Part shown: positions 18,232 to 35,694 of the stretch, piece after piece
Layout: each line of letters starts with the position of its first letter
How positions within the stretch are numbered: position 1 is the stretch's first letter
Source: Betaproteobacteria bacterium
GTDB taxonomy: Bacteria; Pseudomonadota; Gammaproteobacteria; Burkholderiales; SG8-41
Assembly (NCBI GenBank): GCA_016192835.1
Contig: JACPTJ010000107.1
Span: 1 to 47,794 of the forward strand
DNA length: 47,794 nucleotides
Reading direction: 5' to 3'
Program-made: the position numbers and the translations under genes
The notes under the pieces: model-generated
What the model was told of the DNA's origin: nothing
Seen by the model: only the letters and a program-made list of their open reading frames with translations
Databases searched by the model: none

Positions 18232-18330
18232 TATCTCTTTCCTCCTATGTTCGGTTGATCCCGGCATGAGGTAAGGCCAAGCGCCCCATGACATGCTCGT
18301 CTACTGCGGAAAACGCGATACTGCGATGGT

Positions 18331-19989: not shown

Positions 19990-20178
19990 ATCGCTTGGCC
20001 TCCTCGCCGAAATCGAAAGACGGTTGGTAACTACTCAGGTGGCTATCACCCTGATGCCACCAACAGGACGATATTCTACCCCCCCCGTGTCAAGGCAAGC
20101 CAGAAAAACTGAGATTCGGAGTAGGTCCAGGCGAGACCAACGGGCTAGGTCGGTAATTGGTCCAGCGGGCTCCATGCT

Positions 20179-21213
20179 TCACTGTCCTTCCAGCAATATG
20201 CATCGTGCCATTCGGGCCGGCACAGGCCAGATCTCGGGCGGCACTCCCTCCAGGCACCGCGCCTCGGCGTAGGGGCAGCGGGGTGCGAAGCTGCACGCGT
20301 CGACCAGCTTTTCCATATTCGGTGGCGACCCTTCGATCGTGCGAAGGCGTTTCCCCTTCAGTTGCCCATGAACGGTCGACGCCATCAGCCCCTGGGTGTA
20401 GGGGTGCAATGGATCTCGCATTACCGCGCCAACCGGACCGCTCTCAACGAACCGTCCGGCGTACATGACGGCGATCCGGTCGGCGATCTCTCCGGCAACG
20501 CCGAGGTCATGGGTGACGAAAATTACGCTCATTCCAAGCTCCTTCTGCAATTGGCGTAGCAGCAGCAGGATCTGGATCTGCACCGTGGCGTCGAGCGCGG
20601 TTGTCGGCTCGTCGGCAAGCAGCACGCGTGGCCGGCACGATAGTGCGATCGCGATCATGGCGCGTTGCCGCAAACCGCTGGACAGTTCGTGTGGATAGGC
20701 TTTGAGCCGTCGCTTGGCGGACGGGATCTGCGTCAGCTCCAGCAGTTCGAGCGCCCGCGCGTAAGCCGCCTCGCGGCTGGCTCCCTCGTGCCGGATTACC
20801 GTCTCGGCGATCTGGTCGCCGATCGTGTACACAGGGTCCAGGGCGGTCATCGGCTCCTGGAAGATCATTGCAATGATCTTGCCACGGACGCGCGACAGCT
20901 CCGCCGTATTGAGCGCCATGATGTCCCGGCCATCGACGTGCACGCGACCTGAAATGCGGGTCTTTCCTTTCGGCAACAGCCGCGTCAAAGCCCGCAGCGT
21001 TACGCTCTTGCCAGAGCCGGATTCGCCCAATATGCAGAGCACTTCGCCTGGATCGAGGGAGAAGGTGACCCCGTTCACCGCATACACGGTTGTATCCTTG
21101 CTGACAAAGCTTACATGGAGATCCTCGGCGTCGACGACCTTTTCGGTCACCGGCACGTCCCGCAAAACTTCCGCAATCGGGGTCACCATCGCTGCCATCC
21201 CATACCTACTCAT
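20179..21213 (-). CDS. ABC transporter ATP-binding protein (DppD/OppD-like)
   Basis: Walker A 'GESGSGKS', 'LSSGLRQR' and Walker B '[11 protein letters not shown]'. ATG 21213 overlaps the upstream ATPase stop (ATGA). The 437-aa track ORF's N-terminal extension overlaps the neighbouring gene. Confidence 0.88.
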
Positions 21214-22274
21214 GCTGTTGTCGATGCCGCCGCCTTGCTGTGCCCCGATCCCGGAACCGCCATATGGCATGCGGTCTGATGATTGCGGTGCTCGTCCAAC
21301 TCGAACAGTGTCGGCTCGATCCGTTCGCAAACCTCCTCGGCGTACGCGCAGCGCGTGCGGAACCGGCAGCCAGACGGCGGATTGATCGGCGTCGGAGGAT
21401 CGCCGGACAGTGGTGGCTCTGTTTTGCGATCGCCGGGATCCATCGACGGGCGTGACAAAAGCAGGGCCCGCGTGTAGGGATGCACCGGGCAATTGTAGAC
21501 CAGATCGACCGGCCCGATTTCTACTATCTTGCCGAGATACATCACCAGCACTCGATCGCTAATATGGTGTACGACACTCAAGTCATGAGAAATGAAGAGG
21601 TAGGTAAGACTGAACTCTTTCTTGAGGTCGAGAAGAAGGTTTAGCACCTGCGCTTCGACCGACTTGTCGAGGGCCGACACTGCTTCGTCAAGCAAGACGA
21701 GCTTCGGCCGTAGCGCTAGCGCCCGGGCAATGTTGATGCGTTGGCGTTGACCGCCCGACAGCTCGTGCGGGTAGCGGCGGCCGAACCGCTGCGGGTCGAG
21801 ACCGACTTCTCCGAGCAAGCGATATGCGCGCTCTTTCGCCTCTGTTCGGCCAATGCCGTGCACGATCGGCCCGAACGCGATCGTATCCTCGACCGGGAGT
21901 CGGGGGTTCAGTGAGGAATAGGAATCCTGGAACACCATCTGCACTTGGCGGCGCAGTTCCTTAGTCGAAATCCCGTCACGTGTGCCCACTGCGGCGCCGT
22001 CGAAACTCACTTCGCCAGCGTCGGGTTCAATGAGGCGCATTAAAAGTCGTGCGGTGGTTGACTTACCGCATCCAGATTCGCCGACGATTCCGAGCACCTC
22101 GCCTTCACGTACTTCGAAGGACACTTCATCGACCGCCTGCACCATGGCGACGCTTCGATTGAACAGACCGCCCTTTACCGGAAAATATTTGCGAAGCCCC
22201 CTGACTGCGAGTAGTGGCTGCTCGCGTTCGCTCCGACCTGCCGCCCGTTCAGGGTGAACTGTCATCATCTGCAA
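21210..22274 (-). CDS. ABC transporter ATP-binding protein (DppF/OppF-like)
   Basis: Walker A 'GESGCGKST', 'LSGGQRQR', '[12 protein letters not shown]', and the oligopeptide-type C-terminal domain 'HPYTRALL...CRFRTRC'. Confidence 0.9.
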
Positions 22275-22287
22275 ATTGCTCTCAACC

Positions 22288-23220
22288 TTAAAGACGCATG
22301 TCCATGGCGCTACGCAGCCCGTCGCTCAACAGGTTGAAGCACAGCGAGGTAATGAAGATCATCGCGCCTGGCAGGGCGGCGACGTAGGGATTTACCCAGA
22401 TCGACTGCCGCAACGTACTCAGCATTAGGCCCCAATCGGCGGTCGGCGGTGTCACGCCGAGGCCTAGGAAGCTCAGGCCAGAGGCGACGATAATGCTAAA
22501 GCTCATCAGGCTAGTCGCGTAGATGAAAATCGGGCCGAGCACGTTACTGAGCACGTGTACTCGGATGATTGTCCAAGAGCCGGCGCCGCTCGCGCGCGCC
22601 GCTTCGACGAAATCGTAAGTGCGCACCTGCGTTGTGACGCTCTCCGAAACGCGGGCGATCGGGGGGATCAGGATCAGGGTCAGCGACAGAATCACATTGA
22701 AGAAACCGGCGCCGAGGGCTCCAGAGATAGCGATTGCCAGCAAGACCGAAGGGAAGGCGTAGAACACGTCCATCAGGCGCATGATCAGCATGTTTGTCCG
22801 CCCACCGACGAAACCGGCGGCGATGCCCGCGGTACCTCCGACGAGTAGCGCGCCGACGACGGGAAACAGGCCGACGAACAGTGATACCCTGCCGCCATAG
22901 AGCAGACGCGAGAGCATATCGCGGCCCAGTTCATCCGCGCCCAGCAGATAGTTGGGCGAACCGATCGGGGCAAGCCGCTTGAAGACGCTGGTCTGATACG
23001 GATCATGCGGCGCGAGCCACGGTGCGAAGATCGATGCCAGCGCAATCAGAATCAGGATAACGCCGCAGACCGTGGAGACGGGATCGCGCCGCAGCCGAAC
23101 CCACACCATCATCCAATAGCTGCGCGCCCGCAGACTCCCGACCGTGATCTCTTCGCCCTGCTGTCTGCGGCCCTGGGCGCCCTCACGCATGTCGAGCGTC
23201 TTCATCTCGACCATCATCAA
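22288..23220 (-). CDS. ABC transporter permease (DppC/OppC-like)
   Basis: 310-aa hydrophobic ORF with the BPD-transporter motif region 'FVEAARASGAGSWTIIRVHVLSNV'. It overlaps the upstream permease stop by 4 nt. Confidence 0.88.
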   Translation of the reverse strand: MMMVEMKTLDMREGAQGRRQQGEEITVGSLRARSYWMMVWVRLRRDPVSTVCGVILILIALASIFAPWLAPHDPYQTSVFKRLAPIGSPNYLLGADELGRDMLSRLLYGGRVSLFVGLFPVVGALLVGGTAGIAAGFVGGRTNMLIMRLMDVFYAFPSVLLAIAISGALGAGFFNVILSLTLILIPPIARVSESVTTQVRTYDFVEAARASGAGSWTIIRVHVLSNVLGPIFIYATSLMSFSIIVASGLSFLGLGVTPPTADWGLMLSTLRQSIWVNPYVAALPGAMIFITSLCFNLLSDGLRSAMDMRL

Positions 23221-24170
23221 CCTCGCTTAATCCGCGGGTCGAGCCAGGTCTGCATGATGTCGACTATCAGATTCACGAAGACGAAAAAGATCGCGAGTAC
23301 AAGAACCGTACCCTGGAGTATCGGCACGTCGCGCTTGAAGATCGCTTCGTTCAGCAGCAGACCCGAGCCGGGCCAAACGAAAACGGTCTCGATTAGAATC
23401 GAACCACCGAGCAGGTGGCCGAACTGCAGGCCGGTGACTGCCAGTACGGTCGGCGACGCATTCTTGATGACATGCCGGAGCACATTCAACTCCGATAATC
23501 CCTTCGAACGGAGAGTCTCGACGTAATCCTGGCTCAATACCTCAAGCACGCTGGCTCGTGTGGTGCGCATGATAATCCCCATCGGGATCATGGAAAGCGC
23601 GATTACTGGCATAACCAACGCCTTCATGTGATCGAGGTCCCATGCCCAATCACGCGAGCTGCCACTGCCCATGCCAATTGCCGGCAACATCCCAAGCTCG
23701 ACCGCAAAGATGATGACGAGAATGATTGCCACCCAATAATGGGGCACGCTGACGCCGGTAATCGCAAAAGCCGTGACCGACTTGTCAATCCAGGTGCCGT
23801 TTCGGTATGCGGCGATCCCTCCGGCCACGAAGGCGATCAGAAAGCTCAGTGTCGCCGCGAAGACGGCCAAGCGGAATGTGTTTTGCAGCGCGGGGATCAG
23901 TTCCGCGATGACAGGTCGGTTGTGCTGCAGCGAATTGCCGAAGTCACCCTGCACGGCTCGACTCAACCACAGCAGATATTGGATCGGAATCGGCTTGTCG
24001 AAGCCGTAAGCAACTCGAATACGTTGAGTTTCTGCTTCGCTCGCCTCGTCCGGCATTACCGCCTGGATGGGATCGCCGGGGCCAAGATACACCAGCGAAA
24101 AGCAGATGATTGAAACTCCAAGTGCGATCGGAATGGCATAAAGGACGCGTCTAATAATGTAGTAGACCAT
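23217..24170 (-). CDS. ABC transporter permease (DppB/OppB-like)
   Basis: 317 aa with 'MVYYIIRRVLYAIPIALGVSIICFSLVYLGPGDP' (the canonical DppB N-terminus) and 'DYVETLRSKGLSE'. Confidence 0.9.
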   Translation of the reverse strand: MVYYIIRRVLYAIPIALGVSIICFSLVYLGPGDPIQAVMPDEASEAETQRIRVAYGFDKPIPIQYLLWLSRAVQGDFGNSLQHNRPVIAELIPALQNTFRLAVFAATLSFLIAFVAGGIAAYRNGTWIDKSVTAFAITGVSVPHYWVAIILVIIFAVELGMLPAIGMGSGSSRDWAWDLDHMKALVMPVIALSMIPMGIIMRTTRASVLEVLSQDYVETLRSKGLSELNVLRHVIKNASPTVLAVTGLQFGHLLGGSILIETVFVWPGSGLLLNEAIFKRDVPILQGTVLVLAIFFVFVNLIVDIMQTWLDPRIKRG

Positions 24171-25218: not shown

Positions 25219-26568
25219 TCAGCTTTCCAGGGACAGGACCCAATGCGCCAATGCGCACAACTCTGCGTCCCGGCCGGCGCGACCGATCAGTTGCGCGCCT
25301 AGAGGCATGCCATCGGCCTCCATCACCGGCAGCGAGAATGCGGGCAGCCCGAGAAAGGTCGCATAGACGAGATAAGCGCGGCTGCCCGTGTGGCCATGCC
25401 CCACCGGCGCCGGCCCGGAGGCCGCCAGCGTCAATATCGCATCCGCTACGCCCATGACGTCGCGTGCCCGGTCTTTCATGCGCGTTTTTTCAGCGAGCAG
25501 TTCCGCGTAGTATTCCGCGCTCATCTCCCGGGCGCGTGCGAGCCGGTCGTGTACGCGCTGCTCGAGCCGATCTCCGTGCTGCGCGGCATATTGCTCGTAC
25601 GGCCATTTCATCTCATAGGACGTGATGTCGACCGAACGGTCGATGAATGTACCGAAGACTTCATCTTCGAATGCAGCGAAATGCGGATCGTCGCGGCGCG
25701 TGACGAGTTCGACCTCCCTCTCACGCAAGCGCTGCAGGAGCGCCTCGAATGCGGCGCGCGCAGGCGCCTCAACTTCGCTCTCCCACGTTTTCGTATGCAG
25801 TACAATGAGCTTGCGCGGCTTGCGGGCTGTCGGGAGCACAGCGCTTGCGCCCTGCAGTCCCGCTGCGCCGGGATTGCCGGAGGCGAGCGAAACGTGGGAG
25901 GCGACACACCAGGCATCGTCCAGCGTGCCGGCGATCACGCCGAGATGATCGTGCGTGAGCGATATCGGATGCACGCCCTGCATGGTGAGCACGCCGTGTG
26001 TCGGCTTAAAACCCACCGCGCCGCAGTAGGAAGCCGGCCGCAAGGTCGAGCCCTGCGTCTGCGTGCCGAGCGCGGCCGGGACCATGCCGGCGCCCACGGC
26101 AGCGGCCGAGCCGCTCGAGGACCCGCCCGGCGTGCGCGTGAGATCCAGTGGGTTCCGGGTCTCATTGGTGGCGCCGCAGGCAAAAGCGGTCGTGACCGTC
26201 TTGCCGACGACGATCGCGCCCCCTGAGCGCAATGCATGCACACACGCCGCGTCCCAGCGCGGCTGATTACCCGTATAAATGGAATTTCCCATCTGTGTCG
26301 GCAGGTCGCGGGTGTCCATGATGTCCTTGATGCCGACCGGCATGCCGTCGACTGCCGAAAGCGGCTTGCCGTCGCGATAGCGCCCGGCAGAAGCGTCGGC
26401 GGCGCGGCGCGCGCCTTCGAGCCCGAGCGTCACGAAGGCGTGCACTTGGGCGTCTCGCGCGGAGATCGTCGCTATGCGGCGCTCGAGGTATGCGCGCGGG
26501 TTGTCATCGCGTGAGAGAAATCTGGATCGCGCCTTCGAGAAGTCGAGCGCATGCGGGCTGCGGGCCAT
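25219..26568 (-). CDS. Amidase-signature enzyme (no small partner and no C-terminal extension)
   Basis: 449 aa, GAGGAA RBS, with 'GMPVGIKDIMD' and 'GGSSSGSAAAVGAG...GTQTQGSTLRPA'. Confidence 0.88.
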   Translation of the reverse strand: MARSPHALDFSKARSRFLSRDDNPRAYLERRIATISARDAQVHAFVTLGLEGARRAADASAGRYRDGKPLSAVDGMPVGIKDIMDTRDLPTQMGNSIYTGNQPRWDAACVHALRSGGAIVVGKTVTTAFACGATNETRNPLDLTRTPGGSSSGSAAAVGAGMVPAALGTQTQGSTLRPASYCGAVGFKPTHGVLTMQGVHPISLTHDHLGVIAGTLDDAWCVASHVSLASGNPGAAGLQGASAVLPTARKPRKLIVLHTKTWESEVEAPARAAFEALLQRLREREVELVTRRDDPHFAAFEDEVFGTFIDRSVDITSYEMKWPYEQYAAQHGDRLEQRVHDRLARAREMSAEYYAELLAEKTRMKDRARDVMGVADAILTLAASGPAPVGHGHTGSRAYLVYATFLGLPAFSLPVMEADGMPLGAQLIGRAGRDAELCALAHWVLSLES

Positions 26569-26650: not shown

Positions 26651-27610
26651 CTAATTTGCGGTGATCCTGGCGGCTTTTACCACGTGCGCCCATTTCTTGA
26701 TTTCGGACTTGATATAGGCGTCGCTCGCAGTCAGCCCTTCGGCGACCGGCTCCAGTCCGATGCTCCCGAGCTTTTTCGTCACCTCCGGCGAGTGCAGAAT
26801 CTTGGTGACCTCGCCATTGAGGCGCTCGAGAACGGGGCGCGGCGTAGCCGAGGGTGCCAGCATCGCGTACCACACGTCTACGGCATACCCCGGAACGCCC
26901 GCCTCGGCTATGGTCGGAATGTCCGGCGCGGCTGCGGCGCGCCGGGTCCCGGCCGTTGCCAGCACCTTCAGCTTGCCGGCCTCGACATGCTGCCTGGTCG
27001 AGATGATGCTCGCGAACATGAGCGACACGCGCCCGGCGATGACGTCCGTCATGCCCGGACTGGTTCCCTTGTAGGGCACATGGGTGAGATCCGTTTTGGT
27101 CAGCACCTCCAGGTACTCGGTCGCCAGGTGGGAAGGGCTGGCATTGCCCGACGAAGCATAGTTGATCTCGCCGGGGCGCTTCTTCGCGTAGGCGATCAAT
27201 TCCTTGATCGACTTCACGGGCAGCGATGGATGGGCGACGAGGATGTTGGGTGCGTTGACCATGACGGTGACCGGAACGAGGTCGCGCTCGGGGCTGTACG
27301 AGAGATTCTTGTGGGAGCTTGGCAACACCGAGTGACTGATCGAAATGGTGAGCAGGGTATGTCCGTCGGCTGCGGACTTGGCGACGATGTCGCCGCCCAC
27401 CGCACCACCTGCACCTGGGCGGTTTTCAACGATGCCGGGCTGACCGAGCGATTCCTGCAGGTTCTGCGCGATGACGCGCGAGGTCGTATCGACCCCGCCT
27501 CCGGCTCCAGCCGCTGCGACGATGCGCACAGGTTTAGAAGGAAAACCCTGCGCGGTGGCTAACGCAGGCATGGCGAGCCAAAATATCAGTGCGTGCAGTA
27601 CGGGCTTCAT
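26651..27610 (-). CDS. Bug/TctC family periplasmic solute receptor
   Basis: The signal peptide 'MKPVLHALIFWLAMPALATA' is followed by 'QGFPSKPVRIVAAAGAGGGVD'. Also 'VENRPGAGG', 'YASSGNASPSHL' and 'VPYKGTSPG'. AGAAGGAGGG RBS. Confidence 0.88.
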   Translation of the reverse strand: MKPVLHALIFWLAMPALATAQGFPSKPVRIVAAAGAGGGVDTTSRVIAQNLQESLGQPGIVENRPGAGGAVGGDIVAKSAADGHTLLTISISHSVLPSSHKNLSYSPERDLVPVTVMVNAPNILVAHPSLPVKSIKELIAYAKKRPGEINYASSGNASPSHLATEYLEVLTKTDLTHVPYKGTSPGMTDVIAGRVSLMFASIISTRQHVEAGKLKVLATAGTRRAAAAPDIPTIAEAGVPGYAVDVWYAMLAPSATPRPVLERLNGEVTKILHSPEVTKKLGSIGLEPVAEGLTASDAYIKSEIKKWAHVVKAARITAN

Positions 27611-27995: not shown

Positions 27996-28161
27996 AGCTT
28001 GCCTAAAATGTGAACACGCCACCGAAAATATTTGTCTTTCGTTGCGGAACGAGAAGTTTTTCAGTTCTCTTGCACGAAAACCCGACTTTCTACAATTTCT
28101 AGCCGAGCACATTCCCTGATTGTTAAATCAGGTCCCTCTAAAGAAACGCTCTGGAATCTGC

Positions 28162-29407
28162 TTAAGCCGCCAGCTTGTAGGTCGTTTCACGATCAGCGTA
28201 TTTCCTTTTTCGCTGTTCACGCCGCTGCTCCTGTTGCCATAGGATAGCGCCGACGCGGTGAATATTTCTTGCCACCACGGCCAATGCAACATAGCGCTTG
28301 AATCCGTCGATGCCGTGATCCGGGCACCTGTCCAGTCCATGCACTTCGAGCGCGTTAATCGCTGATTCAACCGCCGAGTGGGCGCGCCTGGCCTTGAGGA
28401 ATGTTTCGGATTGCTCGGCTGCCTCCGCTGGTTGCGAGAGCTTGCCTTTTTGGGGCAATGCCGCCAGCTCCAGGAGTTCTTTCAATCCGGTCTGATTGGC
28501 TGGTGAATGAAAGCCTTTATCGAAGCTGCAGGCATTCAATTTCGGAAATCTCTTCTTGGCCTCCGCCACCATCGAAACGGTGACTTGATCATCGGTCTTC
28601 TTTTGCATCACTTGATGATGCAATATAAATTGATGCTGGTCTTCCAGGACACATACTTTGACCCCTAGTTCTACCGGAACACCGGCTTTGCCTTTGCTGA
28701 TCCATTCGGTGTGCGGCTCAAAGATCGAGAATACTTTCTCGCCATGCGGGATCGCTTCTCCCAGCATGACGCGGCGCTTCGTTTGGTCGATTTGGCGTAT
28801 CGCGTGTCGCATGAAGCCTTCAATCTCCAGCTTCTTCAGAACATCGAATTCGTCGGTTACCCGTTGCTCGAGCAGGGCCAGCGCCACGTGCGCTCTTTTC
28901 AGATAGCGCTCGGCAACCTCCAGGTACTCTTGACGCGCTTGGGCAATCAGCGTCGCGTTTCTCTTTTGCTGTTCTTCCGATTGGGCTTTGCTGCGCTTCT
29001 TGTTCTGGGCAGCGCGCATGAGCCGTTTGAGGTGCCTGACGTGGTAGGCGTGTTGCCGCCAGTCGCTCACCTCATGCTGTTCGCACCACTGCGCGGTCAG
29101 CGTGATGACTTTGCGCATCGCGTCATACAGCAGGTTGATATCGGTGGGGTAATGCACATTCGTTTCAACCACCAAGGAGTCGCACCGCCCACGCAGCGCT
29201 TCGCCTGCCTTTTTTTACCAGGGCATGCCCGCCATTGACCACTACCTGATTGATCTTGTCGAGCAGTTCCGGCGTGAGCAGAGGTCGGTGGCTTGCATCG
29301 CCATTACGAGCGGATGGCAGCATGACTTGGGGGCGACTCGCTGCGCCGAGTCGCGCGTACGAGTTTTCGGGAAGGACAACAGACCATACGTGAAGGCGCC
29401 AACACAC
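28162..29407 (-). pseudogene. DDE transposase (IS5/IS1182/ISNCY-like), frameshifted and 5'-truncated
   Basis: 'RCDSLVVETNVHYPTDINLL', 'SFDKGFHSP' and 'RRAHSAVESAINALEVHGLDRCPDHGIDGFKRYVALAVVARNIH'. The upstream part (29165..29407) is in another frame. The frames join across an A7 run (T7 on plus, 29210..29216), and an A6 run would restore '..LVKKAGEALRGRCDS..'. Confidence 0.8.
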
Positions 29408-29439
29408 ATCCGAAGTTTGCAGATCCGTATTTTTGCGGA

Positions 29440-30855
29440 CTACACGTACATTTTTACACTGCGATTCTCATTTGGATGCATCTTCACCCAGTCCGTCGCC
29501 TGTTCGTACGCGTGAGCAACGCGATAGATCAGCGCCTCGCTATAGGGCTTGCCGACGATCTGCATTGCCAGCGGCAGGCCGGTCTTGCTGAATCCTACCG
29601 GGACGGAAATCGCCGGGCTGCCGGTCACGTTAAACGGCGCGCGTGCCTGCCGGGCGTAGGTGTGCTCAATCGCCTGCGGGTTGTCGATGCGGCAAGCCGG
29701 GTCCATCGAGCTCGCTGTCACTGCCACATCCATATCGGCGAACAGCGCGTGGAACGTATCCGCCATCTTGCGGCGAATGCGCGTGGCGTTGACGTAGTCG
29801 GCCGCGCGGACAAAGGCTCCAGCCATCAGCCGCTCGCGGGCGAGCGCGCCGTAATCCTGCGACCGCTCGCGCATCCACTTCTCGTGGATCGCAAAAGCCT
29901 CGCTCGTGAGGATCGTGCGGTTGCAAGCGGCGTAGTCGCCAAGCGCGGCGGTGTCTATTTCGCGTACCTGCGCGCCGAGATCGGTCAGCAGCTTGACCGC
30001 CGCCTCGATTCCGGCCGTCATCTCCGCGTCGGCCTTCATGTCGCGCATGTAGAAGTGGCGGATCACGCCGACTCTGAGGCCCACCACGCCGCGGCCGAGC
30101 TCCGCGGTGTAGCCGCCCGTCGCGCAGTTGGCGCTGCCCGGGTCGAGCGGGTCGTGACCCGCAATCGCGTCCAGCATCAGCGCGTTGTCTCTCACCGTGC
30201 GGGTTAGAGGGCCGACATGGTCGAGGGAGAAAGCGAGCGGCATCACGCCGCGCCGGCTGACCACGCCGTACGTGGGCTTCATGCCGACGATGCCGCACAT
30301 CGAGGCGGGGTTGCGTATCGAGCCCCCGGTATCGGTGCCGACCGCCGCCGGCAGGAACCCGGCTGCCGTCGCGGAGCCGGAGCCGCTCGACGACCCGCCG
30401 CAGAAATGGTCGCGGTTCCAAGGGTTGCGCGCCGGCGGCCAGGGCAGGTCGAAGGACGGCCCGCCGATCGCGAACTCGTGGGCCGACAACTTGCCCATGA
30501 AGACACCGCCGGCCGCGCGCAGTTTCTGCGTCACCGCCGCGTCGGTCGCCGCGAGGTTATCCTGCAGGATTTTCGAATGCGCAGTGGTCGGCAGGCCGGC
30601 ATAGTCGACGATGTCCTTGAGGCCGTACGGCACGCCGTGGAACGGACCGCGCCAGTCGCCGCGCATGATCTCCACCTCGGCGCGACGCGCGTCCTCCAGC
30701 GCGAGCTCGGGGGTGACACGGAGGAAAGCATTGAAATCGCTGTCGTGCGTTTCGATGCGGTCGAGCAGTGCTTTGGCGTACTCGACAGGCGAGAGCTTCC
30801 TCGTGCGCAACAGCTCGGCTGCCTCGGCAACGGTGAGGTAGGCGAGATCCGTCAT
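29440..30855 (-). CDS. Amidase-signature enzyme (AtzE/GatA-like), large subunit of split pair 1
   Basis: 471 aa with 'GVPYGLKDIVD' and 'GGSSSGSGSATAAG...GTDTGGSIRNPA'. Its start codon lies inside the ATGA that ends the small ORF at 30852. Confidence 0.9.
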   Translation of the reverse strand: MTDLAYLTVAEAAELLRTRKLSPVEYAKALLDRIETHDSDFNAFLRVTPELALEDARRAEVEIMRGDWRGPFHGVPYGLKDIVDYAGLPTTAHSKILQDNLAATDAAVTQKLRAAGGVFMGKLSAHEFAIGGPSFDLPWPPARNPWNRDHFCGGSSSGSGSATAAGFLPAAVGTDTGGSIRNPASMCGIVGMKPTYGVVSRRGVMPLAFSLDHVGPLTRTVRDNALMLDAIAGHDPLDPGSANCATGGYTAELGRGVVGLRVGVIRHFYMRDMKADAEMTAGIEAAVKLLTDLGAQVREIDTAALGDYAACNRTILTSEAFAIHEKWMRERSQDYGALARERLMAGAFVRAADYVNATRIRRKMADTFHALFADMDVAVTASSMDPACRIDNPQAIEHTYARQARAPFNVTGSPAISVPVGFSKTGLPLAMQIVGKPYSEALIYRVAHAYEQATDWVKMHPNENRSVKMYV

Positions 30856-31058
30856 CGCTTGTCCTCCGCAGCGAGGTGGAAAACGTGAGCCGGCTCGTCG
30901 GCCGGCGTGATTTCCCCAAGCGGCAGCACCTTCCGGCGCGCGCGCGCTGTGTTCGTCGCGCGCAGCAGCTGCTGCAGATGCTCGTCCGCGAGGCGCGTCA
31001 TGCCGATCTCGGCGGCCATCCTCCTCACCTCGTCGAGCGTCAAGCTTTCGTTCACCAT
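30852..31058 (-). CDS. ~68-aa AtzG/GatC-like (DUF4089-like) amidase partner protein
   Basis: ATG 31058 is preceded by AAGGAG. 'MVNESLTLDEVRRMAAEIGMTRLADEHLQQLL...ADEPAHVFHL'. It has a 4-nt overlap with the amidase start. The ORF-track start is TTG 31076. Confidence 0.6.
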   Translation of the reverse strand: MVNESLTLDEVRRMAAEIGMTRLADEHLQQLLRATNTARARRKVLPLGEITPADEPAHVFHLAAEDKR

Positions 31059-31116
31059 GTGGTGTCTCCTTGGCAAGTTGTACCGGGAAGCGCTGATCGC
31101 ACGGGATGAGAAGCGG

Positions 31117-32079
31117 TCAGCTCGTAAAGCTCAGCTTCGCTTCCTTGACCACCCGCCGCCATTTCTCGACGTCGCGCTTGATCATCCCGTGGAACACATG
31201 GGATGCTCCCCCTATCGGCTCCATGCCGTCGTTGGCGAGCCGCTCCTTCATTTGAGGCGTCTCGAGCGATTTGTTCACTGCCGAATTCCAGCGGCGGACG
31301 ACCTCCGCGGGCAGGCCTTTCGGCCCCATCACGCCGTAAACGATCACCGCCTCGTAACCGGGAACCGTGTCAGCGATGGTCGGCATCTCCGGAAGCGCGC
31401 TCACCCGTTGAGCGGTGGTGACCGCGATTCCGCGCAGCCTGCCCGCTTTGACGTGAGGCACGGTCGACGGCATGCTGCCGAACATCATCTCGACCTGATT
31501 GCCGAGGAGCGCAGTGAGTGCGGGACCGGTGCCTTTGAACGGAATGTGCATCATGCGGATGCCCGCCATGAGGCCGAAGAGCTCCGTGGCCAGATGCGTG
31601 ATGGCGCCTGTGCCGCTCGACCCGTAGTTGAGCTTGCCGGGATTCGCTTTCGCAAAAACAATGAGCTCACTCGTCGTCTTGATCTGCACGGCCGGATGCA
31701 CCGCGACGACGAAGCCGGCACCGCCGATGGCGATCACTGCCTGCACGTCGTTGACCGGGTCGAACGACAACTTGTAAATGGCCGCGTTGGTCCCATAACC
31801 CGATACCAGGCCGAGGGTATAACCGTCGGGGGTTGCGCGCACGATCATTTCTTCCCCGATATTGCCTCCGGCACCGGGGCGGTTGTCGACGACGACGGAC
31901 TGGTCAAAGGACTGCGACATCTGCTGCGCCATGACGCGTGCCACGATATCCGTGCCTCCGCCTGCGCGAACGGAATGATCAATCGCACGGGCCGGGTGGG
32001 ATACTGCTGCGCGAAATACAACGCCCGCGCTCGGCAACGCGCTGAACAGCAACAGGCACGATGCTATGGCCAATTTCAT
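31117..32079 (-). CDS. Bug/TctC family receptor with a compensated double frameshift in the N-terminal signature
   Basis: The ORF is intact, with 'VDNRPGAGGNIG', 'YGSSGTGAITHL' and 'IPFKGTGPA'. The expected 'FAQQYPTRPVRLIIPFA' is encoded only in the +1 frame of 31965..32015. The ORF frame reads 'FRAAVSHPARAIDHSVRA' there. Confidence 0.8.
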   Translation of the reverse strand: MKLAIASCLLLFSALPSAGVVFRAAVSHPARAIDHSVRAGGGTDIVARVMAQQMSQSFDQSVVVDNRPGAGGNIGEEMIVRATPDGYTLGLVSGYGTNAAIYKLSFDPVNDVQAVIAIGGAGFVVAVHPAVQIKTTSELIVFAKANPGKLNYGSSGTGAITHLATELFGLMAGIRMMHIPFKGTGPALTALLGNQVEMMFGSMPSTVPHVKAGRLRGIAVTTAQRVSALPEMPTIADTVPGYEAVIVYGVMGPKGLPAEVVRRWNSAVNKSLETPQMKERLANDGMEPIGGASHVFHGMIKRDVEKWRRVVKEAKLSFTS

Positions 32080-32114
32080 GAGTTCCTCCGTTCCAGGTTT
32101 TCCGTAGAAGACAT

Positions 32115-32166
32115 AGGAAAATCAATACACCCGTCGCCAGGGTTCTGTGCCAATGCAACGCTGCAG
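32115..32166 (+). repeat. 52-nt IS terminal repeat (left end), inverted relative to 35643..35694
   Basis: AGGAAAATCAATACACCCGTCGCC...CTGTGCCAATGCAACGCTGCAG matches the reverse complement of 35643..35694 at 43 of 52 positions (hand count). Confidence 0.75.
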
Positions 32167-32193
32167 CGATTGTATCCCGCAAATATAGATTAT

Positions 32194-32223
32194 GGCATGA
32201 TGGGCGCATGGTTGTGCTCATCA
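32194..32223 (+). repeat. 30-nt direct repeat (transposase 5' region), copy A; copy B is at 34020..34049
   Basis: GGCATGATGGGCGCATGGTTGTGCTCATCA versus GGCATGATAGGCGCATGGTCGCGCTCATCA matches at 27 of 30 positions. Both contain an ATG opening 'MV.LI..' reading frames. Confidence 0.7.
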
Positions 32224-32272
32224 CGCCGATTCTTGCACTTCCTGCTGAAGAATTCGCAGAGGAGACCAACGC

Positions 32273-32476
32273 ATGCCGAAGAACATCGACCCGCAGGCCG
32301 TGAGGCGTCTCGCCGCGCAACTGCGCGGCCTGGAGGTGACCGAAGAACGCGCCGCGCAGCTCGCCATCGAGATTGCGCGGGTGAACGAGGCCGCGCGCGC
32401 CGAAGGCGCGAAGAACGATTTCAACGACCAGCCCACGAACTTCGCGGTCACCCTGGCTGTGCTCGCAAAGCGATGA
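32273..32476 (+). CDS. 67-aa AtzG/GatC-like (DUF4089-like) amidase partner protein
   Basis: GAGGAG RBS. 'MPKNIDPQAVRRLAAQLRGLEVTEERAAQLAIEIARVNEAA...NDQPTNFAVTL'. The stop TGA (32474..32476) overlaps the amidase ATG at 32473. Confidence 0.6.
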   Translation: MPKNIDPQAVRRLAAQLRGLEVTEERAAQLAIEIARVNEAARAEGAKNDFNDQPTNFAVTLAVLAKR

Positions 32477-33885
32477 GCGCCGACCTCCTGAACATGAGCC
32501 TGTGCGAGGTTGCGCAGGCGATACGGCGCAAGCGCGTGTCCTCGCTGGAAGTGACGCGCGCCTGTCTCGCGCGCGCGAAGGCGGTGCAACCGACCGTGAA
32601 CTGCTTCATCGCGATCGAGGAGGACGAGGCGCTGCGCGCCGCGCGCGCGGCCGACCGCGCGGTGAAGCGCGGTGCGAAGCTCGGCTCGCTGCATGGTGTC
32701 CCGCTCGCCCACAAGGACATGTTCTACCGCGCCGGGCGCGTCTCCACCGGGGGCAGCAAGATCCTGCGCGACTACCGTCCGACCGTCACGGCGACGGTCG
32801 TCGAACGGCTGGCGGCGGCCGGCGCGATCTGGCTCGGCAACCTCAACATGGCCGAGTTCGCCGCCAATCCAACCGGACACAACGAGCACTGGGGCGATTG
32901 CTGCAATCCGTGGAACACCGCGCACATCACCGGCGGGTCGTCGAGCGGTTCGGGCGCGGCGGTGGCGGCGCGAACGTGCTACGGCTCCCTCGGTTCAGAC
33001 ACTGGCGGCTCGATACGGCTGCCCGCGGCGGCGAACGGCGTCGTCGGCCTCAAGCCGACCTACGGCCGCGTGAGCCGCCATGCCATCCTCCCGCGCGTCT
33101 GGTCGCTGGACACCGTGGGCCCGCTCACGCGGACGGTGCGCGACTGCGCCCGGATCACGGCCGTCATCGCCGGCGCCGATCCGCTCGACCCGACTGCGAG
33201 CGCGCAGCCGGTGCCGAACTACGAGCGTCTGCTCGATCGCCGGATTCGCGGATGGAAGATCGGCGTGCCGCGCAACCACTTCTACGACGGCATCGCCGAG
33301 GACGTGCGCCGGGCCATGGAGGAGAGCCTCGCGGTGTTGCGATCGCTCGGCGCGCGCATCATCGAGCTCGACGTCCCGGACCCGCAGCACACCTACCAGC
33401 TCACCAACGCCATCGGCCAAGTCGAATCCGCGACGATCTACGCCAACTGGCTGCGGGAGCGGCCGCAGGATTTCTCGCTGGTGGTGCGCACGCGCACGGA
33501 AGCCGGCATGCTCGTGCCGGGGGTGAGTTACCTGGAAGCGCTCAATGCGCGGCCTCGCATCGCCGCCGAGTTCGTCCGCCAAGTGTACGGCACCGTCGAC
33601 GCCCTGCACGCGCCGGTCATGACGATGCCCGTGCCGACGCGCGCCGAGACGACGCCCGGGGGATCGGGCGAGGTCATGGACATGCTCGCGCGGCTCACCC
33701 ACAACACGCGCCCGATCAATTTTCTCGGGCTGCCTTCGCTCGCGGTGCCGGCGGGCTTCGCGGACAACGGCCTGCCCGTCGCCTTCCAGCTGATCGGTCG
33801 ACCGTTCGCCGAAGACGTGCTCCTCCGGATCGGGGATGCCTTTCAGGCGGAGACCGACTGGCACGCGCGCGCGCCGACGTCCTGA
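32473..33885 (+). CDS. Amidase-signature enzyme (AtzE-like), large subunit of split pair 2
   Basis: 470 aa. This is the in-frame C-terminal part of the artefactual 992-aa track ORF. 'GVPLAHKDMF' and 'GGSSSGSGAAVAAR...GSDTGGSIRLPA'. Confidence 0.9.
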   Translation: MSADLLNMSLCEVAQAIRRKRVSSLEVTRACLARAKAVQPTVNCFIAIEEDEALRAARAADRAVKRGAKLGSLHGVPLAHKDMFYRAGRVSTGGSKILRDYRPTVTATVVERLAAAGAIWLGNLNMAEFAANPTGHNEHWGDCCNPWNTAHITGGSSSGSGAAVAARTCYGSLGSDTGGSIRLPAAANGVVGLKPTYGRVSRHAILPRVWSLDTVGPLTRTVRDCARITAVIAGADPLDPTASAQPVPNYERLLDRRIRGWKIGVPRNHFYDGIAEDVRRAMEESLAVLRSLGARIIELDVPDPQHTYQLTNAIGQVESATIYANWLRERPQDFSLVVRTRTEAGMLVPGVSYLEALNARPRIAAEFVRQVYGTVDALHAPVMTMPVPTRAETTPGGSGEVMDMLARLTHNTRPINFLGLPSLAVPAGFADNGLPVAFQLIGRPFAEDVLLRIGDAFQAETDWHARAPTS

Positions 33886-34019
33886 TGCAGGACGCGGCCG
33901 GCCCGATCGTCGCCATCAACGTGAGCCCGCGCGAAGACCTGCGCACCGAATGGCCGACCTCGTACCTGTGCTCCGCATTTATTCGATCCGAGGGCGGTAA
34001 CCGGCTGATCGCGGTTCAC

Positions 34020-34049
34020 GGCATGATAGGCGCATGGTCGCGCTCATCA
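34020..34049 (+). repeat. 30-nt direct repeat, copy B (see 32194..32223)
   Basis: See copy A. Here it leads into the longer transposase fragment at 34034. Confidence 0.7.
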
Positions 34050-34363
34050 AGATCGCGCTTCACCTCGTCACAGACGTCTTCCGGTTAGCCGGCCTCCTGT
34101 GCCGACCGACGCGGTCGGTCCAAGCCGAGAATCTGTTCCTTCGCCGACAACGGGCACTGCCTAAAGATCGCGGCGTTCAACCACGGCGGATAGACCCCGC
34201 AACCCGAATCAGTTTGGCTATCCTGGCAGGGCTCTTCGAATGGCGGGATGCGCTGTTTGTATTACAGCCGAAGACGATGATCCGGTGGCAGCGTGCCGGC
34301 TGGCGCTTGTTCTGGCGATGGAAGTGTCTGCGCGGCCGCCCAGAGATTCCAGTAGAACTAATG
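34034..34363 (+). pseudogene. N-terminal fragment of an rve-type (IS481/IS3-superfamily-like) transposase/integrase
   Basis: 'SVQAENLFLRRQ', 'LQPKTMIRWQRAGWRLFWRWK' and 'GRPEIPVEL' form the characteristic N-terminal region. Similarity ends at ~codon 110 and no catalytic domain follows. Confidence 0.65.
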
Positions 34364-34448
34364 AGATGGACGCCCCCTTCCTCAAACGGCATCAAAGTGC
34401 CAAAGTGGCAATGGGTTCAATCCACTGAAAAGGAAAGGAGCGTCCGAG

Positions 34449-34733
34449 ATGAAGATTACGACAATTGGGATCGATTTGGCAAAGAATGTGTTTCAGGTAC
34501 ATGGGGTCGATGAGCGGGGCAAAGCGGTGCTGCGCAAGCAGCTCAAGCGCAAGGACGTGGTGAAGTTCTTCGCGAATCTCGAGTGCTGCCTGATCGGCAT
34601 GGAAGCCTGCGGCAGCGCCCATTATTGGGGGAGGACGCTCTCGGAGCTGAGCCACACGGTGCGCCTGATGGCCCCGCAGTTTGTGAAGCCCTACGTGAAG
34701 ACGAACAAGAGCGACCGCAATGACGCCGAGGCG
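34449..34733 (+). pseudogene. N-terminal fragment of an IS110-family (DEDD) transposase
   Basis: 'MKITTIGIDLAKNVFQVHGVDERGK', 'GMEACGSAHYWGR', 'LMAPQFVKPYVKTNKSDRNDAEA' and a GGAAAGGAG RBS. The family-typical sequence stops after ~95 codons. Confidence 0.8.
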
Positions 34734-35104
34734 ACCTACCAGTCCGATTACGTTGCGAAACGCACGGCCGCGTAATCGCGGTCGGTTGAATTGAACGAAG
34801 GAACGTTTAGCAAAGGAGGGCTTCCGCCGATTGCTCAGGCAATCATGAGGTCATGGCAAGATAGGTCAGACCGTGACGGGGTAAGCCTGAGGGACCCAAC
34901 GCACTTCGAGTGCACGTCACTGATGAGGCCCCCTCAGCCGATTCCATCAGGGACCGAGGCATAAGCCTCATACAAAGTCCGGATCTATGGCTGCAATCTT
35001 TACCTTCTCGCCGTCATTGATTGATTGCTTGACAAACCGGGGGCGTCCATCTATGGGTCCCGAGGCCTGGCCGGTGCACGCCGGCCTGCCGCTCACCTAC
35101 CACC

Positions 35105-35464
35105 TGTTATGCGCTGCAGCGCATAACGGGCGCAATGCAGAGTGTATTGTTATGCGGAGCCGCATCCTCGGAGGCCCTGATTACAGGTCATTTTGAAGGT
35201 TGTTCTCTCCGCATAGAAGTGCGCGCTTTCAGCGAGGCGATCAGTGCATCGGTTGCCTTGAAGCGCGAAGTGCTTGAACTCGTAGAGGGGAATCAAAGAA
35301 CTGTTCGAGCATGACGTCCATCCTTGGATGGAAATCTGAGGCCAGAGGGCCGTCACTATTATGCGGAGTCGTTAGACCTGCAATGCGGTCACATCCCGAT
35401 GAATGAACTACGTTATCTCAGCTCCTACGATCCTCCTCTCCGCATAACAATAAACTCTGCATTA
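35105..35464. mobile_element. ~360-bp non-autonomous (MITE/PATE-like) insertion inside repeat copy 2
   Basis: It is absent from the otherwise collinear copy 1 (16251..16260) and is flanked by CACC on both sides. There is a 26-nt inverted repeat at 35134..35159 / 35438..35463 (25 of 26), and a perfect 20-nt palindrome at 35107..35126. There is no transposase-sized ORF. Confidence 0.7.
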
Positions 35465-35694
35465 CACCCGGTTCCCGACGTCGCCTGAACGCAGGGCGCG
35501 TTTGACTTGGCGCGCCCGGGGACTGCATAATTTGCCGCAACGTCCGTTGCGAAGTGCCCTGGCAGTGCAGATCGGGCGGGGGACACGCGCGGGTAGCCCC
35601 GATTACGCGACATCGGGCGCACCGAGCACCGATCCGGCATTACTGCACCGTCGCATTGGCACAGGGTGTCGGCGACGGGGGTATTGATTTTCCT
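35465..35694 (+). repeat. IS-end-like repeat, copy 2 (right portion; the left 20 nt are at 35085..35104 before the insertion)
   Basis: Near-identical to 16257..16476. It extends 8 nt further (..GTATTGATTTTCCT), which matches the inverted copy at 32115. Confidence 0.85.

What the first reader, a model, noticed from the sequence alone, without database searches (positions are those of the whole stretch)
29440..33885. Two amidase + ~67-aa partner pairs (AtzE/AtzG-like) arranged divergently around one Bug receptor gene
Seen: two small ORFs, 30852..31058 (68 aa, AAGGAG RBS) and 32273..32476 (67 aa, GAGGAG RBS), each end in an ATGA that contains the start codon of a ~470-aa amidase-signature enzyme (29440..30855 minus; 32473..33885 plus). 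The two small proteins share a common layout. It begins with an N-terminal 'L/I-x-x-x-x-V-R-R-[ML]-A-A', continues through a helical middle, and ends in an acidic-Pro motif ('ADEPAHVFHL' versus 'NDQPTNFAVTL').

Known: in Pseudomonas sp. ADP the amidase AtzE (1-carboxybiuret hydrolase) is only stable as a complex with the 68-aa GatC-related AtzG.

Inference: these are uncharacterised AtzEG-type heteromeric amidases. Here they are wired to Bug receptors, with no AtzD/AtzF/AtzH-like gene in the window. The substrates are therefore probably carboxylated amides or ureides rather than s-triazine intermediates. ORFs this short are routinely missed by gene callers.
Basis: partly seen in the sequence, partly recalled or inferred. 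Interest (0 to 1): 0.72.

Follow-up and report, generated by a model that had tools for sequence, protein, structure and literature searches.

The report
Amidases with GatC/AtzG-like small partner proteins
Two amidase genes each sit directly behind a conserved, translationally coupled ~68-residue gene that is most likely a distant relative of the GatC/AtzG "belt" subunit. The same module is fused to two other amidases in the window, so many enzymes annotated simply as "amidase" may really be two-part enzymes.

Summary
S1 (30852..31058, minus strand) and S2 (32273..32476, plus strand) are real genes under purifying selection. Each overlaps the start of a ~470-aa amidase by 4 nt (ATGA).

Synteny is almost perfect. 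An S1-like ORF adjoins 76 of 77 orthologues of amidase A1. An S2/S3-like ORF adjoins 63 of 63 relatives of amidase A2. The most distant A2 relative is a true gatC-gatA pair.

Direct tests against Pfam AtzG-like and GatC, NCBIfam and PDB sequences are negative. Both amidases score below the AtzE and GatA cut-offs, so these are not family members.

Deeper profiles do link the families:
- S1 family to AtzG: hhalign 83%, E 9e-6, full length.
- S2 to S3: 92%.
- (S1+AtzG) to (S2+S3): 79%.

Foldseek ranks GatC chains 2nd and 3rd for the S1 model, but not significantly.

Two other amidases in the window carry an S1-like module as a C-terminal fusion. An Aminobacter plasmid orthologue has it as a separate downstream gene.

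Best reading: uncatalogued GatC/AtzG-like partner subunits of GatA-clade amidases. S1 is solid and S2 is weaker. The Bug-receptor link and the substrate guess are weak. Gene callers do find these ORFs.

The parts
30852..31058 (-). S1: 68-aa small protein, proposed GatC/AtzG-like partner subunit of amidase A1
   Evidence: ORF with an AAGGAG Shine-Dalgarno sequence and an ATGA overlap with A1. 561 homologue clusters and 90 clusters at 50% identity. dN/dS 0.2-0.5. An S1-like ORF adjoins 76 of 77 A1 orthologues. hhalign of the S1 family against the AtzG family gives 83%, E 8.9e-6, 63 columns. The AF2 model has pLDDT 84 with helices 8-17 and 25-44 and an extended tail. Foldseek ranks 2 and 3 are GatC chains, not significant.
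29440..30855 (-). A1: 471-aa amidase-signature enzyme of the GatA/AtzE-like clade
   Evidence: Pfam PF01425 at 1e-107. Below the NCBIfam GatA and AtzE cut-offs. Best PDB hits are GatA (4wj3, 2df4) and then AtzE (6c62). The Lys, cis-Ser and Ser columns are invariant.
31117..32079 (-). Bug/TctC periplasmic solute receptor, upstream of and co-directional with S1-A1 (58-nt gap)
   Evidence: Pfam PF03401 at 1e-72. It is one of at least 10 TctC genes in the window.
32273..32476 (+). S2: 67-aa small protein, proposed partner subunit of amidase A2
   Evidence: ORF with a GAGGAG Shine-Dalgarno sequence and an ATGA overlap. 33 homologue clusters. dN/dS about 0.27. An S2/S3-family ORF lies upstream of 63 of 63 A2 relatives. 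hhalign S2 to S3 gives 92%, and (S1+AtzG) to (S2+S3) gives 79%. The S1+AtzG HMM hits S2 at E 0.0019 in the six-frame scan of the window. The AF2 model has pLDDT 71 with helices 7-16, 24-43 and 54-66; Foldseek finds no GatC or AtzG.
32473..33885 (+). A2: 470-aa amidase-signature enzyme, 36% identical to A1
   Evidence: Pfam PF01425 at 1.5e-110. Best NCBIfam hits are the AtzE models at 328-339 bits, below the cut-offs of 425.75 and 461. PDB hits are GatA 4wj3 at 2e-87 and AtzE 6c62 at 6e-64. BLASTP against A1.
45406..47052 (+). 548-aa amidase with a C-terminal S1-like module (about 46858..47037): a natural fusion of partner and enzyme
   Evidence: Translation. Pfam Amidase covers only the core. 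The tail is the best non-self hit of the S1 HMM (E 0.007) and of the S1+AtzG HMM (E 3.6e-5) among 873 six-frame ORFs. Alignment A5 shows the extension.
18331..19989 (-). 552-aa amidase with a C-terminal S1-like module (about 18355..18504), inside an Opp/Dpp-type ABC transporter operon
   Evidence: Translation. The tail hits the S1 HMM at E 0.014 in the window scan and at 1.1e-3 with Z=1000. Neighbouring genes carry SBP_bac_5 and ABC domains.

Best explanation
S1 and S2 are non-catalytic small subunits, distant and uncatalogued relatives of GatC/AtzG. Each is made in 1:1 coupling with its amidase from an overlapping stop/start (ATGA).

Each partner consists of a helix-loop-helix followed by an extended acidic-Pro tail. 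It most likely packs onto and wraps the GatA-like amidase core, stabilising it as AtzG does for AtzE and GatC does for GatA.

The amidases keep the Ser-cisSer-Lys triad and act as hydrolytic amidases on unknown substrates. The substrate may be imported through the adjacent Bug receptor.

Shown here: the genes are real, they are under purifying selection, adjacency is near-universal, the module occurs fused and split, and there is remote profile similarity.

Inferred: physical complex formation, dependence of the amidase on its partner, and the substrate.
For: Gene reality and coupling:
- Both small ORFs are conserved proteins with coding-type GC3 and dN/dS of 0.2-0.5.
- A 4-nt ATGA overlap joins each to its amidase. 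For A1, a GGAGGA lies inside the 3' end of S1.

Synteny independent of neighbourhood:
- An S1-like ORF lies directly upstream in 76 of 77 A1 orthologues (63-85% identity). These come from Beta- and Alphaproteobacteria and Candidatus Entotheonella.
- An S2/S3-family ORF lies upstream in 63 of 63 A2 relatives (45-100% identity). The 38%-identical relative L174 has a bona fide GatC (Pfam 4.9e-21) in the same position.
- Flanking genes differ between loci.

Fusion and fission:
- Two further amidases in the window carry an S1-like module at their C-terminus. These tails and S2 are the top non-self hits of the S1 and S1+AtzG HMMs among 873 six-frame ORFs.
- The Aminobacter plasmid orthologue has the module as a separate 64-aa gene downstream with a 4-nt overlap.

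Remote homology:
- hhalign: S1 to AtzG 83%, E 8.9e-6, 63 colinear columns. S2 to S3 92%. (S1+AtzG) to (S2+S3) 79%. (S2+S3) to GatC 33%. (S1+AtzG) to GatC 24%.
- The five unmerged pairs that were tested scored above all 60 column shuffles and above the reversed control.
- AtzG against GatC, which the literature describes as related, gives only 0.3%. Weak scores are therefore expected in this family.

Structure:
- The S1 model (pLDDT 84) is a helix-loop-helix plus an extended tail. GatC chains 3kfu_G and 9a62_B are Foldseek ranks 2 and 3 of 350,542 chains, with the highest probabilities (0.60, 0.57) and TM 0.53.
- S2 has the same two helices at the same positions.

Amidase clade:
- GatA and AtzE are the closest solved or curated relatives of all four partner-bearing amidases. 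The partner-less 449-aa amidase is far more distant.
- In a rough NJ tree, partner type tracks amidase clade.

Against: - No direct match of S1, S2 or 56 diverse S1 relatives to Pfam AtzG-like or GatC, to NCBIfam, or to any PDB sequence.
- The narrow-profile hhalign runs were non-significant.
- The Foldseek E-values for S1 are about 1, which is not significant. The S2 model gives no GatC or AtzG hit.
- S2's link to AtzG/GatC is only transitive, through S3 and the merged profiles.
- Column shuffling is a lenient control for amphipathic helices.
- The NJ tree has no support values.
- No complex model could be computed, and no experiment exists for these proteins.
Confidence: 0.7

Rival explanations
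1. The small proteins are genuine amidase partners but are not homologous to GatC/AtzG. They would be independently evolved small helical subunits or chaperone-like accessory proteins. This applies to S2 in particular.
For: All direct family tests are negative. hhalign for S1 against S2 gives only 17%, and BLASTP finds nothing. Foldseek on S2 finds no GatC or AtzG. The Azospirillum and Planktothrix small ORFs at the same position match none of the profiles.
Against: All profile alignments are colinear and full length, and the pairs tested exceed the controls. The same gene position is occupied by true GatC in L174 and by AtzG in pADP-1. The partner-bearing amidases cluster with GatA and AtzE. 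Literature-described relatives AtzG and GatC are themselves undetectable by hhalign.
Confidence: 0.17
2. The small ORFs act mainly as regulatory or translational-coupling leader ORFs, or as small regulators, rather than as stable subunits. They would control amidase expression.
For: Overlapping stop/start codons are present, and A2 lacks an obvious Shine-Dalgarno sequence, so its translation probably depends on S2 translation. Junction geometry varies among orthologues: overlaps of 1, 4 or 8 nt and gaps of 2-14 nt.
Against: Leader peptides are not normally conserved in sequence across phyla with invariant motifs such as DEPAHVF. The module also occurs downstream of the amidase and fused to its C-terminus, where it cannot act as a leader. 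dN/dS is below 1 along the whole ORF.
Confidence: 0.06
3. The pairs are components of a larger GatCAB-like amidotransferase and not simple hydrolases. The small protein would bridge the amidase to a GatB-like or other partner, channelling ammonia.
For: The closest solved relative of both amidases is GatA. In GatCAB, GatC stabilises the GatA-GatB assembly (my own background knowledge of the transamidosome).
Against: The small proteins have the length of AtzG (about 68 aa) and lack the C-terminal third present in the roughly 95-aa GatC. No GatB-like gene was seen among the neighbouring genes examined in the window or in related loci. The amidases score well below the GatA equivalog cut-off.
Confidence: 0.05

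Closest known systems
AtzE-AtzG, 1-carboxybiuret hydrolase of Pseudomonas sp. ADP (PDB 6C62/6C6G; plasmid pADP-1 atzDGEHF)
   Same: A ~68-aa non-catalytic gene sits immediately upstream of a ~460-aa amidase-signature enzyme. The amidases are 32-36% identical to AtzE. The S1 family aligns full length to the AtzG family, with 'PADEPAHVFR' matching 'PEdELAEIYR' (hhalign 83%). According to PMC6219798, AtzE needs AtzG for solubility.
   Different: S1 and S2 fail the Pfam AtzG-like model, which AtzG itself passes at 7.9e-9. The amidases fall below the AtzE cut-offs. No atzH/hpxZ, atzD or atzF is nearby. The junction here is a 4-nt overlap, against a 2-nt gap in pADP-1 (L014: atzG ends at 2625 and atzE starts at 2628). 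The module also occurs fused or downstream.
GatC-GatA of the GatCAB transamidosome (for example PDB 2DF4, 3KFU, 4WJ3)
   Same: GatA is the best solved-structure match of both amidases. gatC occupies the same upstream position in L174, the most distant A2 relative. Foldseek places GatC chains at ranks 2 and 3 for the S1 model. There are weak colinear profile alignments (24-33%).
   Different: GatC is about 95 aa, with an extra C-terminal part. No GatB partner is seen here. The amidases are below the GatA equivalog cut-off. S1 and S2 fail Pfam GatC.
[quoted passage not shown]
   Same: These are small AtzG-like proteins encoded next to AtzE-like amidases in nitrogen-compound catabolic clusters, outside s-triazine degradation.
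   Different: S1 and S2 do not match NF033624. No AtzH/HpxZ-like gene accompanies them. Their amidase clades are different.

Membership tests
Pfam PF13318 AtzG-like (formerly DUF4089) | Sequence matches the family HMM at or above the gathering score (24 bits) | tested here: not met
   No hit at E<=1 for S1, S2, 56 diverse S1-superfamily members or 7 S2/S3 members. The positive control AtzG scores 36.2 bits, E 7.9e-9.
Pfam PF02686 GatC | Sequence matches the GatC HMM (cut-off 23 bits); length about 95 aa including the C-terminal segment | tested here: not met
   No hit for S1, S2 or their relatives. The positive control, the L174 upstream ORF, scores 75 bits. S1 and S2 are 67-68 aa.
GatC/AtzG-like small-subunit superfamily (remote homology) | Profile-profile or structural similarity to AtzG or GatC over the helix-loop-helix plus extended tail | tested here: inconclusive
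   S1 family to AtzG: hhalign 83%, E 8.9e-6, 63 columns, above all controls. S2 is linked only through S3 (92%) and the merged profiles (79%); links to GatC are 24-33%. Foldseek gives GatC at ranks 2-3 for S1 with E about 1, and nothing for S2.
AtzE family amidohydrolase (NCBIfam TIGR02715 / NF006631) | Score at or above the curated cut-off (425.75 / 461 bits) | tested here: not met
   A1 scores 307.9 / 320.3 bits and A2 scores 327.8 / 338.7 bits.
GatA (NCBIfam TIGR00132) | Score at or above 481.1 bits | tested here: not met
   A1 scores 334.4 bits and A2 scores 307 bits.
Amidase signature family (Pfam PF01425) | Full-length match to the HMM and a conserved Ser-cisSer-Lys catalytic triad (K in 'KD', GGSS, GGSIR) | tested here: met
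   E-values of 1e-107 and 1.5e-110. K81, S156/S157 and S180 are invariant in the alignment of the five window amidases.
AtzEG-type heteromeric amidase (system level) | Small partner gene directly adjacent to the amidase and co-translated with it, conserved across orthologues | tested here: met
   ATGA overlaps. Adjacency in 76 of 77 and 63 of 63 related loci. The same arrangement occurs in cultured Bosea, Azospirillum, Planktothrix and Roseivivax plasmids.
AtzEG-type heteromeric amidase (system level) | Stable physical complex; amidase insoluble or unstable without the small subunit | not testable with these tools
The only indirect support is natural fusion and fission.
atzG-atzE-atzH cluster (PMC6219798) | AtzH/HpxZ (DUF3225) gene next to the pair | tested here: not met
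   tblastn of AtzH, AtzD and AtzG against the window gives no hit at E<=0.01.
Bug/TctC receptor (Pfam PF03401) | Full-length match to the TctC HMM | tested here: met
   The gene 31117..32079 matches at 1e-72.

The most novel reading that the evidence does not exclude
A small GatC-derived 'belt' module may be an ancestral and general feature of the whole GatA-like clade of amidase-signature enzymes. It evolves fast and is therefore mostly absent from Pfam and NCBIfam. It is encoded interchangeably as an upstream gene, a downstream gene or a C-terminal fusion.

If so, a large share of the bacterial genes annotated simply as 'amidase' encode obligate two-component enzymes. That would explain frequent insolubility on heterologous expression, and it gives a simple genomic rule for finding the missing partner.
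Probability: 0.45. Interest if true: 0.6.

Novelty: new variant of a known kind. Interest (0 to 1): 0.5.

Why it matters
Amidase-signature enzymes are widely mined for biocatalysis and bioremediation, and they are usually expressed as single genes. Suppose these ~68-aa genes are obligate GatC/AtzG-like subunits, as AtzG is for AtzE. Then the partner must be co-expressed to obtain soluble enzyme, and annotation pipelines should name it rather than leave it as 'hypothetical protein'.

The data also extend the evolutionary picture in which catabolic amidases descend from the GatCA part of the transamidosome. The one known family (AtzG) becomes at least three further sequence families (S1, S2, S3), plus fused forms.

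This is not a new mechanism. It is a broader and largely unannotated distribution of a known one.

Tried and rejected
Negative searches:
- Pfam, NCBIfam and PDB sequence searches with the single small proteins and with narrow family profiles found no AtzG or GatC.
- hhalign with the narrow profiles A1, A2 and A3 was not significant. Signal appeared only after widening the families with remote members and ORFs taken from related loci.
- tblastn of S1 against 72,556 plasmids found no match.
- The Rfam scan of 28000..35500 found nothing.
- The literature search for DUF4089, HpxX and AtzG-like returned nothing relevant.

Structure work that failed or gave little:
- Foldseek on the S2 model gave no informative hit.

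Other:
- The promoter and terminator scan found 2 promoter-like sites against 0.8 expected and is not informative. One site lies upstream of the Bug gene.
- The original AtzEG structure paper (PMC5961051) is not held. An earlier guessed PMC id was a wrong paper.

Considered and rejected:
- That the ORFs are high-GC artefacts. Homologue conservation and dN/dS rule this out.
- That the Bug gene specifies the substrate. Bug genes are too dense here for adjacency to be informative.


Full report
OBSERVATION

S1 (30855..31058, minus strand, 68 aa) has AAGGAG 7 nt before its ATG. Its TGA overlaps the ATG of amidase A1 (29440..30855, minus strand, 471 aa). S2 (32273..32476, plus strand, 67 aa) has GAGGAG 8 nt before its ATG and overlaps amidase A2 (32473..33885, 470 aa) in the same ATGA manner. 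The Bug/TctC gene 31117..32079 (minus strand) lies upstream of S1-A1 on the same strand and is divergent from S2-A2. A1 and A2 are 36% identical.

The window matches a betaproteobacterial MAG contig, GCA_016183635.1.

ARE THE SMALL ORFS REAL GENES?

Yes.
- S1 has 561 homologue clusters at 90% identity, and S2 has 33. All are 60-100 aa and all are 'hypothetical protein' without a Pfam domain.
- A profile search of 1.84 billion representatives found 90 clusters at 50% identity for the S1 superfamily. The consensus is A..GL..L...hL.qL.rA......LP..L.paDEPAHVFR.
- dN/dS against orthologues is 0.21-0.52 for S1 and 0.26-0.28 for S2. Third-position GC is 0.85-0.87, as in the amidases.

SYNTENY

Homologues of S1 and S2 taken from unrelated neighbourhoods always sit directly upstream of a 464-472-aa amidase.

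I then ran the unbiased test, starting from the amidase.
- Among 80 genome loci encoding A1 orthologues (63-85% identity), 77 had enough upstream sequence. They come from Beta- and Alphaproteobacteria, Candidatus Entotheonella/Tectimicrobiota and others. 76 of the 77 carry an S1-like ORF ending within a few nucleotides of the amidase start. The junctions are overlaps of 1, 4 or 8 nt or gaps of 2-14 nt.
- Among 64 metagenome loci encoding A2 relatives with enough upstream sequence, 63 carry an ORF matching the S2/S3 profile. This group includes a third family, S3 (for example MKPLSAEAIEAMLAAQGIPLAPGRAERLAPGVNALAVADPLRAGLAFEVDATTYLLALSRNK), next to amidases 45-50% identical to A2.
- The 64th locus, L174 (38% identity), has a bona fide GatC at that position (Pfam PF02686, 4.9e-21). 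It is a gatC-gatA pair.
- RefSeq plasmids of cultured Bosea, Azospirillum, Planktothrix and Roseivivax show the same 4-nt-overlapping 'hypothetical protein' plus amidase.

FUSION AND FISSION

The window contains five amidase-signature genes. Two of them, 45406..47052 (plus strand, 548 aa) and 18331..19989 (minus strand, 552 aa), have a ~70-aa C-terminal extension that reads like S1:
- ...ARRAGLNLDEYQAAILLETAPFALAIAERVRKPRSRSEEPALVFRF
- ...CKRASLKLADGHFQQLCAAAPYVEAMVGRLRRDRSFTEEPMNVVSF
.

I ran an hmmsearch of all 873 six-frame ORFs of the window. The best non-self hits of the S1 HMM are exactly these two tails (E 0.007 and 0.014). The S1+AtzG HMM gives one tail at 3.6e-5, S2 at 0.0019 and the other tail at 0.015.

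An Aminobacter plasmid orthologue of the fused amidase (47% identity) encodes the module as a separate 64-aa gene downstream, with a 4-nt overlap. That protein is WP_067969497.1, and it contains '...FDEPAHVF...'.

The same module therefore occurs upstream, downstream and fused. This is classic evidence for a physical partnership, and it is incompatible with a leader-peptide role.

The fifth amidase (25219..26568, 449 aa) has no room for a partner gene. It is also much more divergent from GatA and AtzE.

IS THE MODULE RELATED TO ATZG OR GATC?

Direct tests are negative.
- Neither Pfam AtzG-like (PF13318) nor Pfam GatC (PF02686) matches S1, S2, 56 diverse S1 relatives or the S2/S3 members tested.
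- NCBIfam does not match S1 or S2.
- PDB sequence and profile searches find no AtzG or GatC for S1, S2, their narrow family profiles or the 56-member S1 profile.
- The controls work. AtzG taken from pADP-1 hits PF13318 at 7.9e-9, and the L174 ORF hits GatC.

Profile-profile comparison with broadened families gives:
- S1 to AtzG: 83% probability, E 8.9e-6, 63 colinear columns.
- S2 to S3: 92%.
- S1 to S2: 17%, score 20.8.
- S3 to AtzG: 10%.
- (S1+AtzG) to (S2+S3): 79%, E 1.7e-5.
- (S2+S3) to GatC: 33%.
- (S1+AtzG) to GatC: 24%.

All alignments are in the same register. The five unmerged pairs that were tested (S1-AtzG, S2-S3, S1-S2, S1-GatC, S3-AtzG) scored above 60 of 60 column shuffles and above the reversed control. 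AtzG against GatC scores only 0.3%, although the published view is that AtzEG evolved from GatCA (PMC6219798). Sequence methods are therefore known to be near-blind in this family.

AF2 models S1 (pLDDT 84) as helix 8-17, helix 25-44 and an extended tail. Foldseek against 350,542 PDB chains finds nothing significant. GatC chains 3kfu_G and 9a62_B are nonetheless ranks 2 and 3, with the highest probabilities (0.60, 0.57) and TM 0.53 over 63 columns. S2 (pLDDT 71) has helices at the same positions (7-16, 24-43) plus a C-terminal helix, and gives no GatC hit.

THE AMIDASES

Both amidases are full-length PF01425 proteins with the Lys/cis-Ser/Ser columns conserved. Their best curated and solved relatives are GatA and AtzE, but they fall well below the GatA and AtzE equivalog cut-offs. 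They are 34-36% identical to AtzE.

A rough NJ tree without support values groups all partner-bearing amidases with GatA and AtzE. The partner-less AtzF amidase domain and the 449-aa window amidase fall outside this group. Partner type (S1-like, S2/S3-like) tracks clade.

CONTEXT

No AtzD, AtzH or AtzG-like sequence is detectable in the window by tblastn. AtzF matches only through its amidase domain.

The window holds at least 10 TctC/Bug genes, four MmgE/PrpD paralogues, two PGA_cap genes, an aconitase pair and an Opp/Dpp-type ABC operon. At that Bug density, adjacency of an amidase to a Bug gene carries little information. Homologous pairs elsewhere are often next to other genes, such as a beta-lactamase-fold protein, alpha/beta hydrolases or TRAP transporters.

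VERDICT

These are best explained as heteromeric GatA-clade amidases with a GatC/AtzG-like small partner. They belong to sequence families that no current model covers, and they are not members of the AtzE or AtzG families. The link is good for S1 and the fused modules. For S2 it is transitive and weaker. Complex formation and partner dependence are inferred and have not been shown.

Novelty is moderate. The kind of system is known (AtzEG, GatCA). What appears new is its breadth, the extra families, and the interchangeable upstream, downstream and fused arrangements.

Noticed in passing
window 45406..47052 (+) and 18331..19989 (-): Two further amidases carry a ~70-aa C-terminal extension resembling the S1 small protein. 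They appear to be natural fusions of partner and enzyme. In a six-frame HMM scan of the window, these tails are the top non-self hits.
   Followed up: yes
L175:2922-3116 (Aminobacter sp. plasmid pANY103b, NZ_AP017988.1): An orthologue of the fused amidase has the S1-like module as a separate 64-aa 'hypothetical protein' (WP_067969497.1). The gene lies downstream of the amidase with a 4-nt overlap, which is the split form of the fusion.
   Followed up: yes
L112-L173 (metagenome loci): A third uncatalogued small-partner family ('S3', motif ..AIEAxLAAQGIxLAPGRAExLA...DPLR..L.FE.DPT.Y) precedes amidases 45-50% identical to A2, overlapping by GTGA. It has no Pfam match.
   Followed up: partly
L174:~1210-1500: The most distant A2 relative recovered (38% identity) is a canonical gatC-gatA pair, with GatC in the position occupied by S2 and S3.
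   Followed up: yes
window 25219..26568 (-): A fifth amidase (449 aa) lies 83 nt downstream of the Bug gene 26651..27610. It has no small partner ORF and no tail, and it is much more distant from GatA and AtzE.
   Followed up: partly
window, whole: Bug/TctC genes are extremely dense: at least 10 in 48 kb, at 7014, 8024, 10102, 11055, 15067, 26651, 31117, 38330, 41862 and 44391. No TctA or TctB was seen among the ORFs scanned. The window also holds four MmgE/PrpD paralogues (780, 35758, 37191, 39909) and two PGA_cap genes.
   Followed up: partly
window 28162..29175 (-) and 34449..34775 (+): The Bug/amidase module is flanked by mobile-element remnants. One is a 337-aa ORF without a Pfam hit that reads like a DDE transposase. 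The other is a truncated IS110-family transposase (PF01548, 5.6e-7).
   Followed up: no
window 33885..34088 (+): The public annotation of the same contig calls a 67-aa gene immediately after A2. It lies in the frame of a long alternative-frame ORF, shows no S-like signal, and is probably spurious.
   Followed up: partly
L022, L033, L032 (between the small ORF and the amidase): A short repeated insert, translating as ...LTPSPLPPSGEGKWTAGNDV..., separates the S1-like ORF from the amidase in some loci. In L032 the S1-like ORF is missing altogether. It may be a REP/MITE-like element.
   Followed up: no
P0242 (representative protein library): One S1-superfamily entry runs from the small protein straight into the amidase N-terminus (...SGDLAYLGLAEAAELIRAKKLSPVECM). 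This is probably a frameshift or a read-through gene call at the overlap.
   Followed up: no
window 16621..24170 (-): The fused amidase 18331..19989 lies inside an Opp/Dpp-type ABC transporter operon (SBP_bac_5, two ATPases, two permeases). This hints at peptide-like or amide substrates for that paralogue.
   Followed up: no
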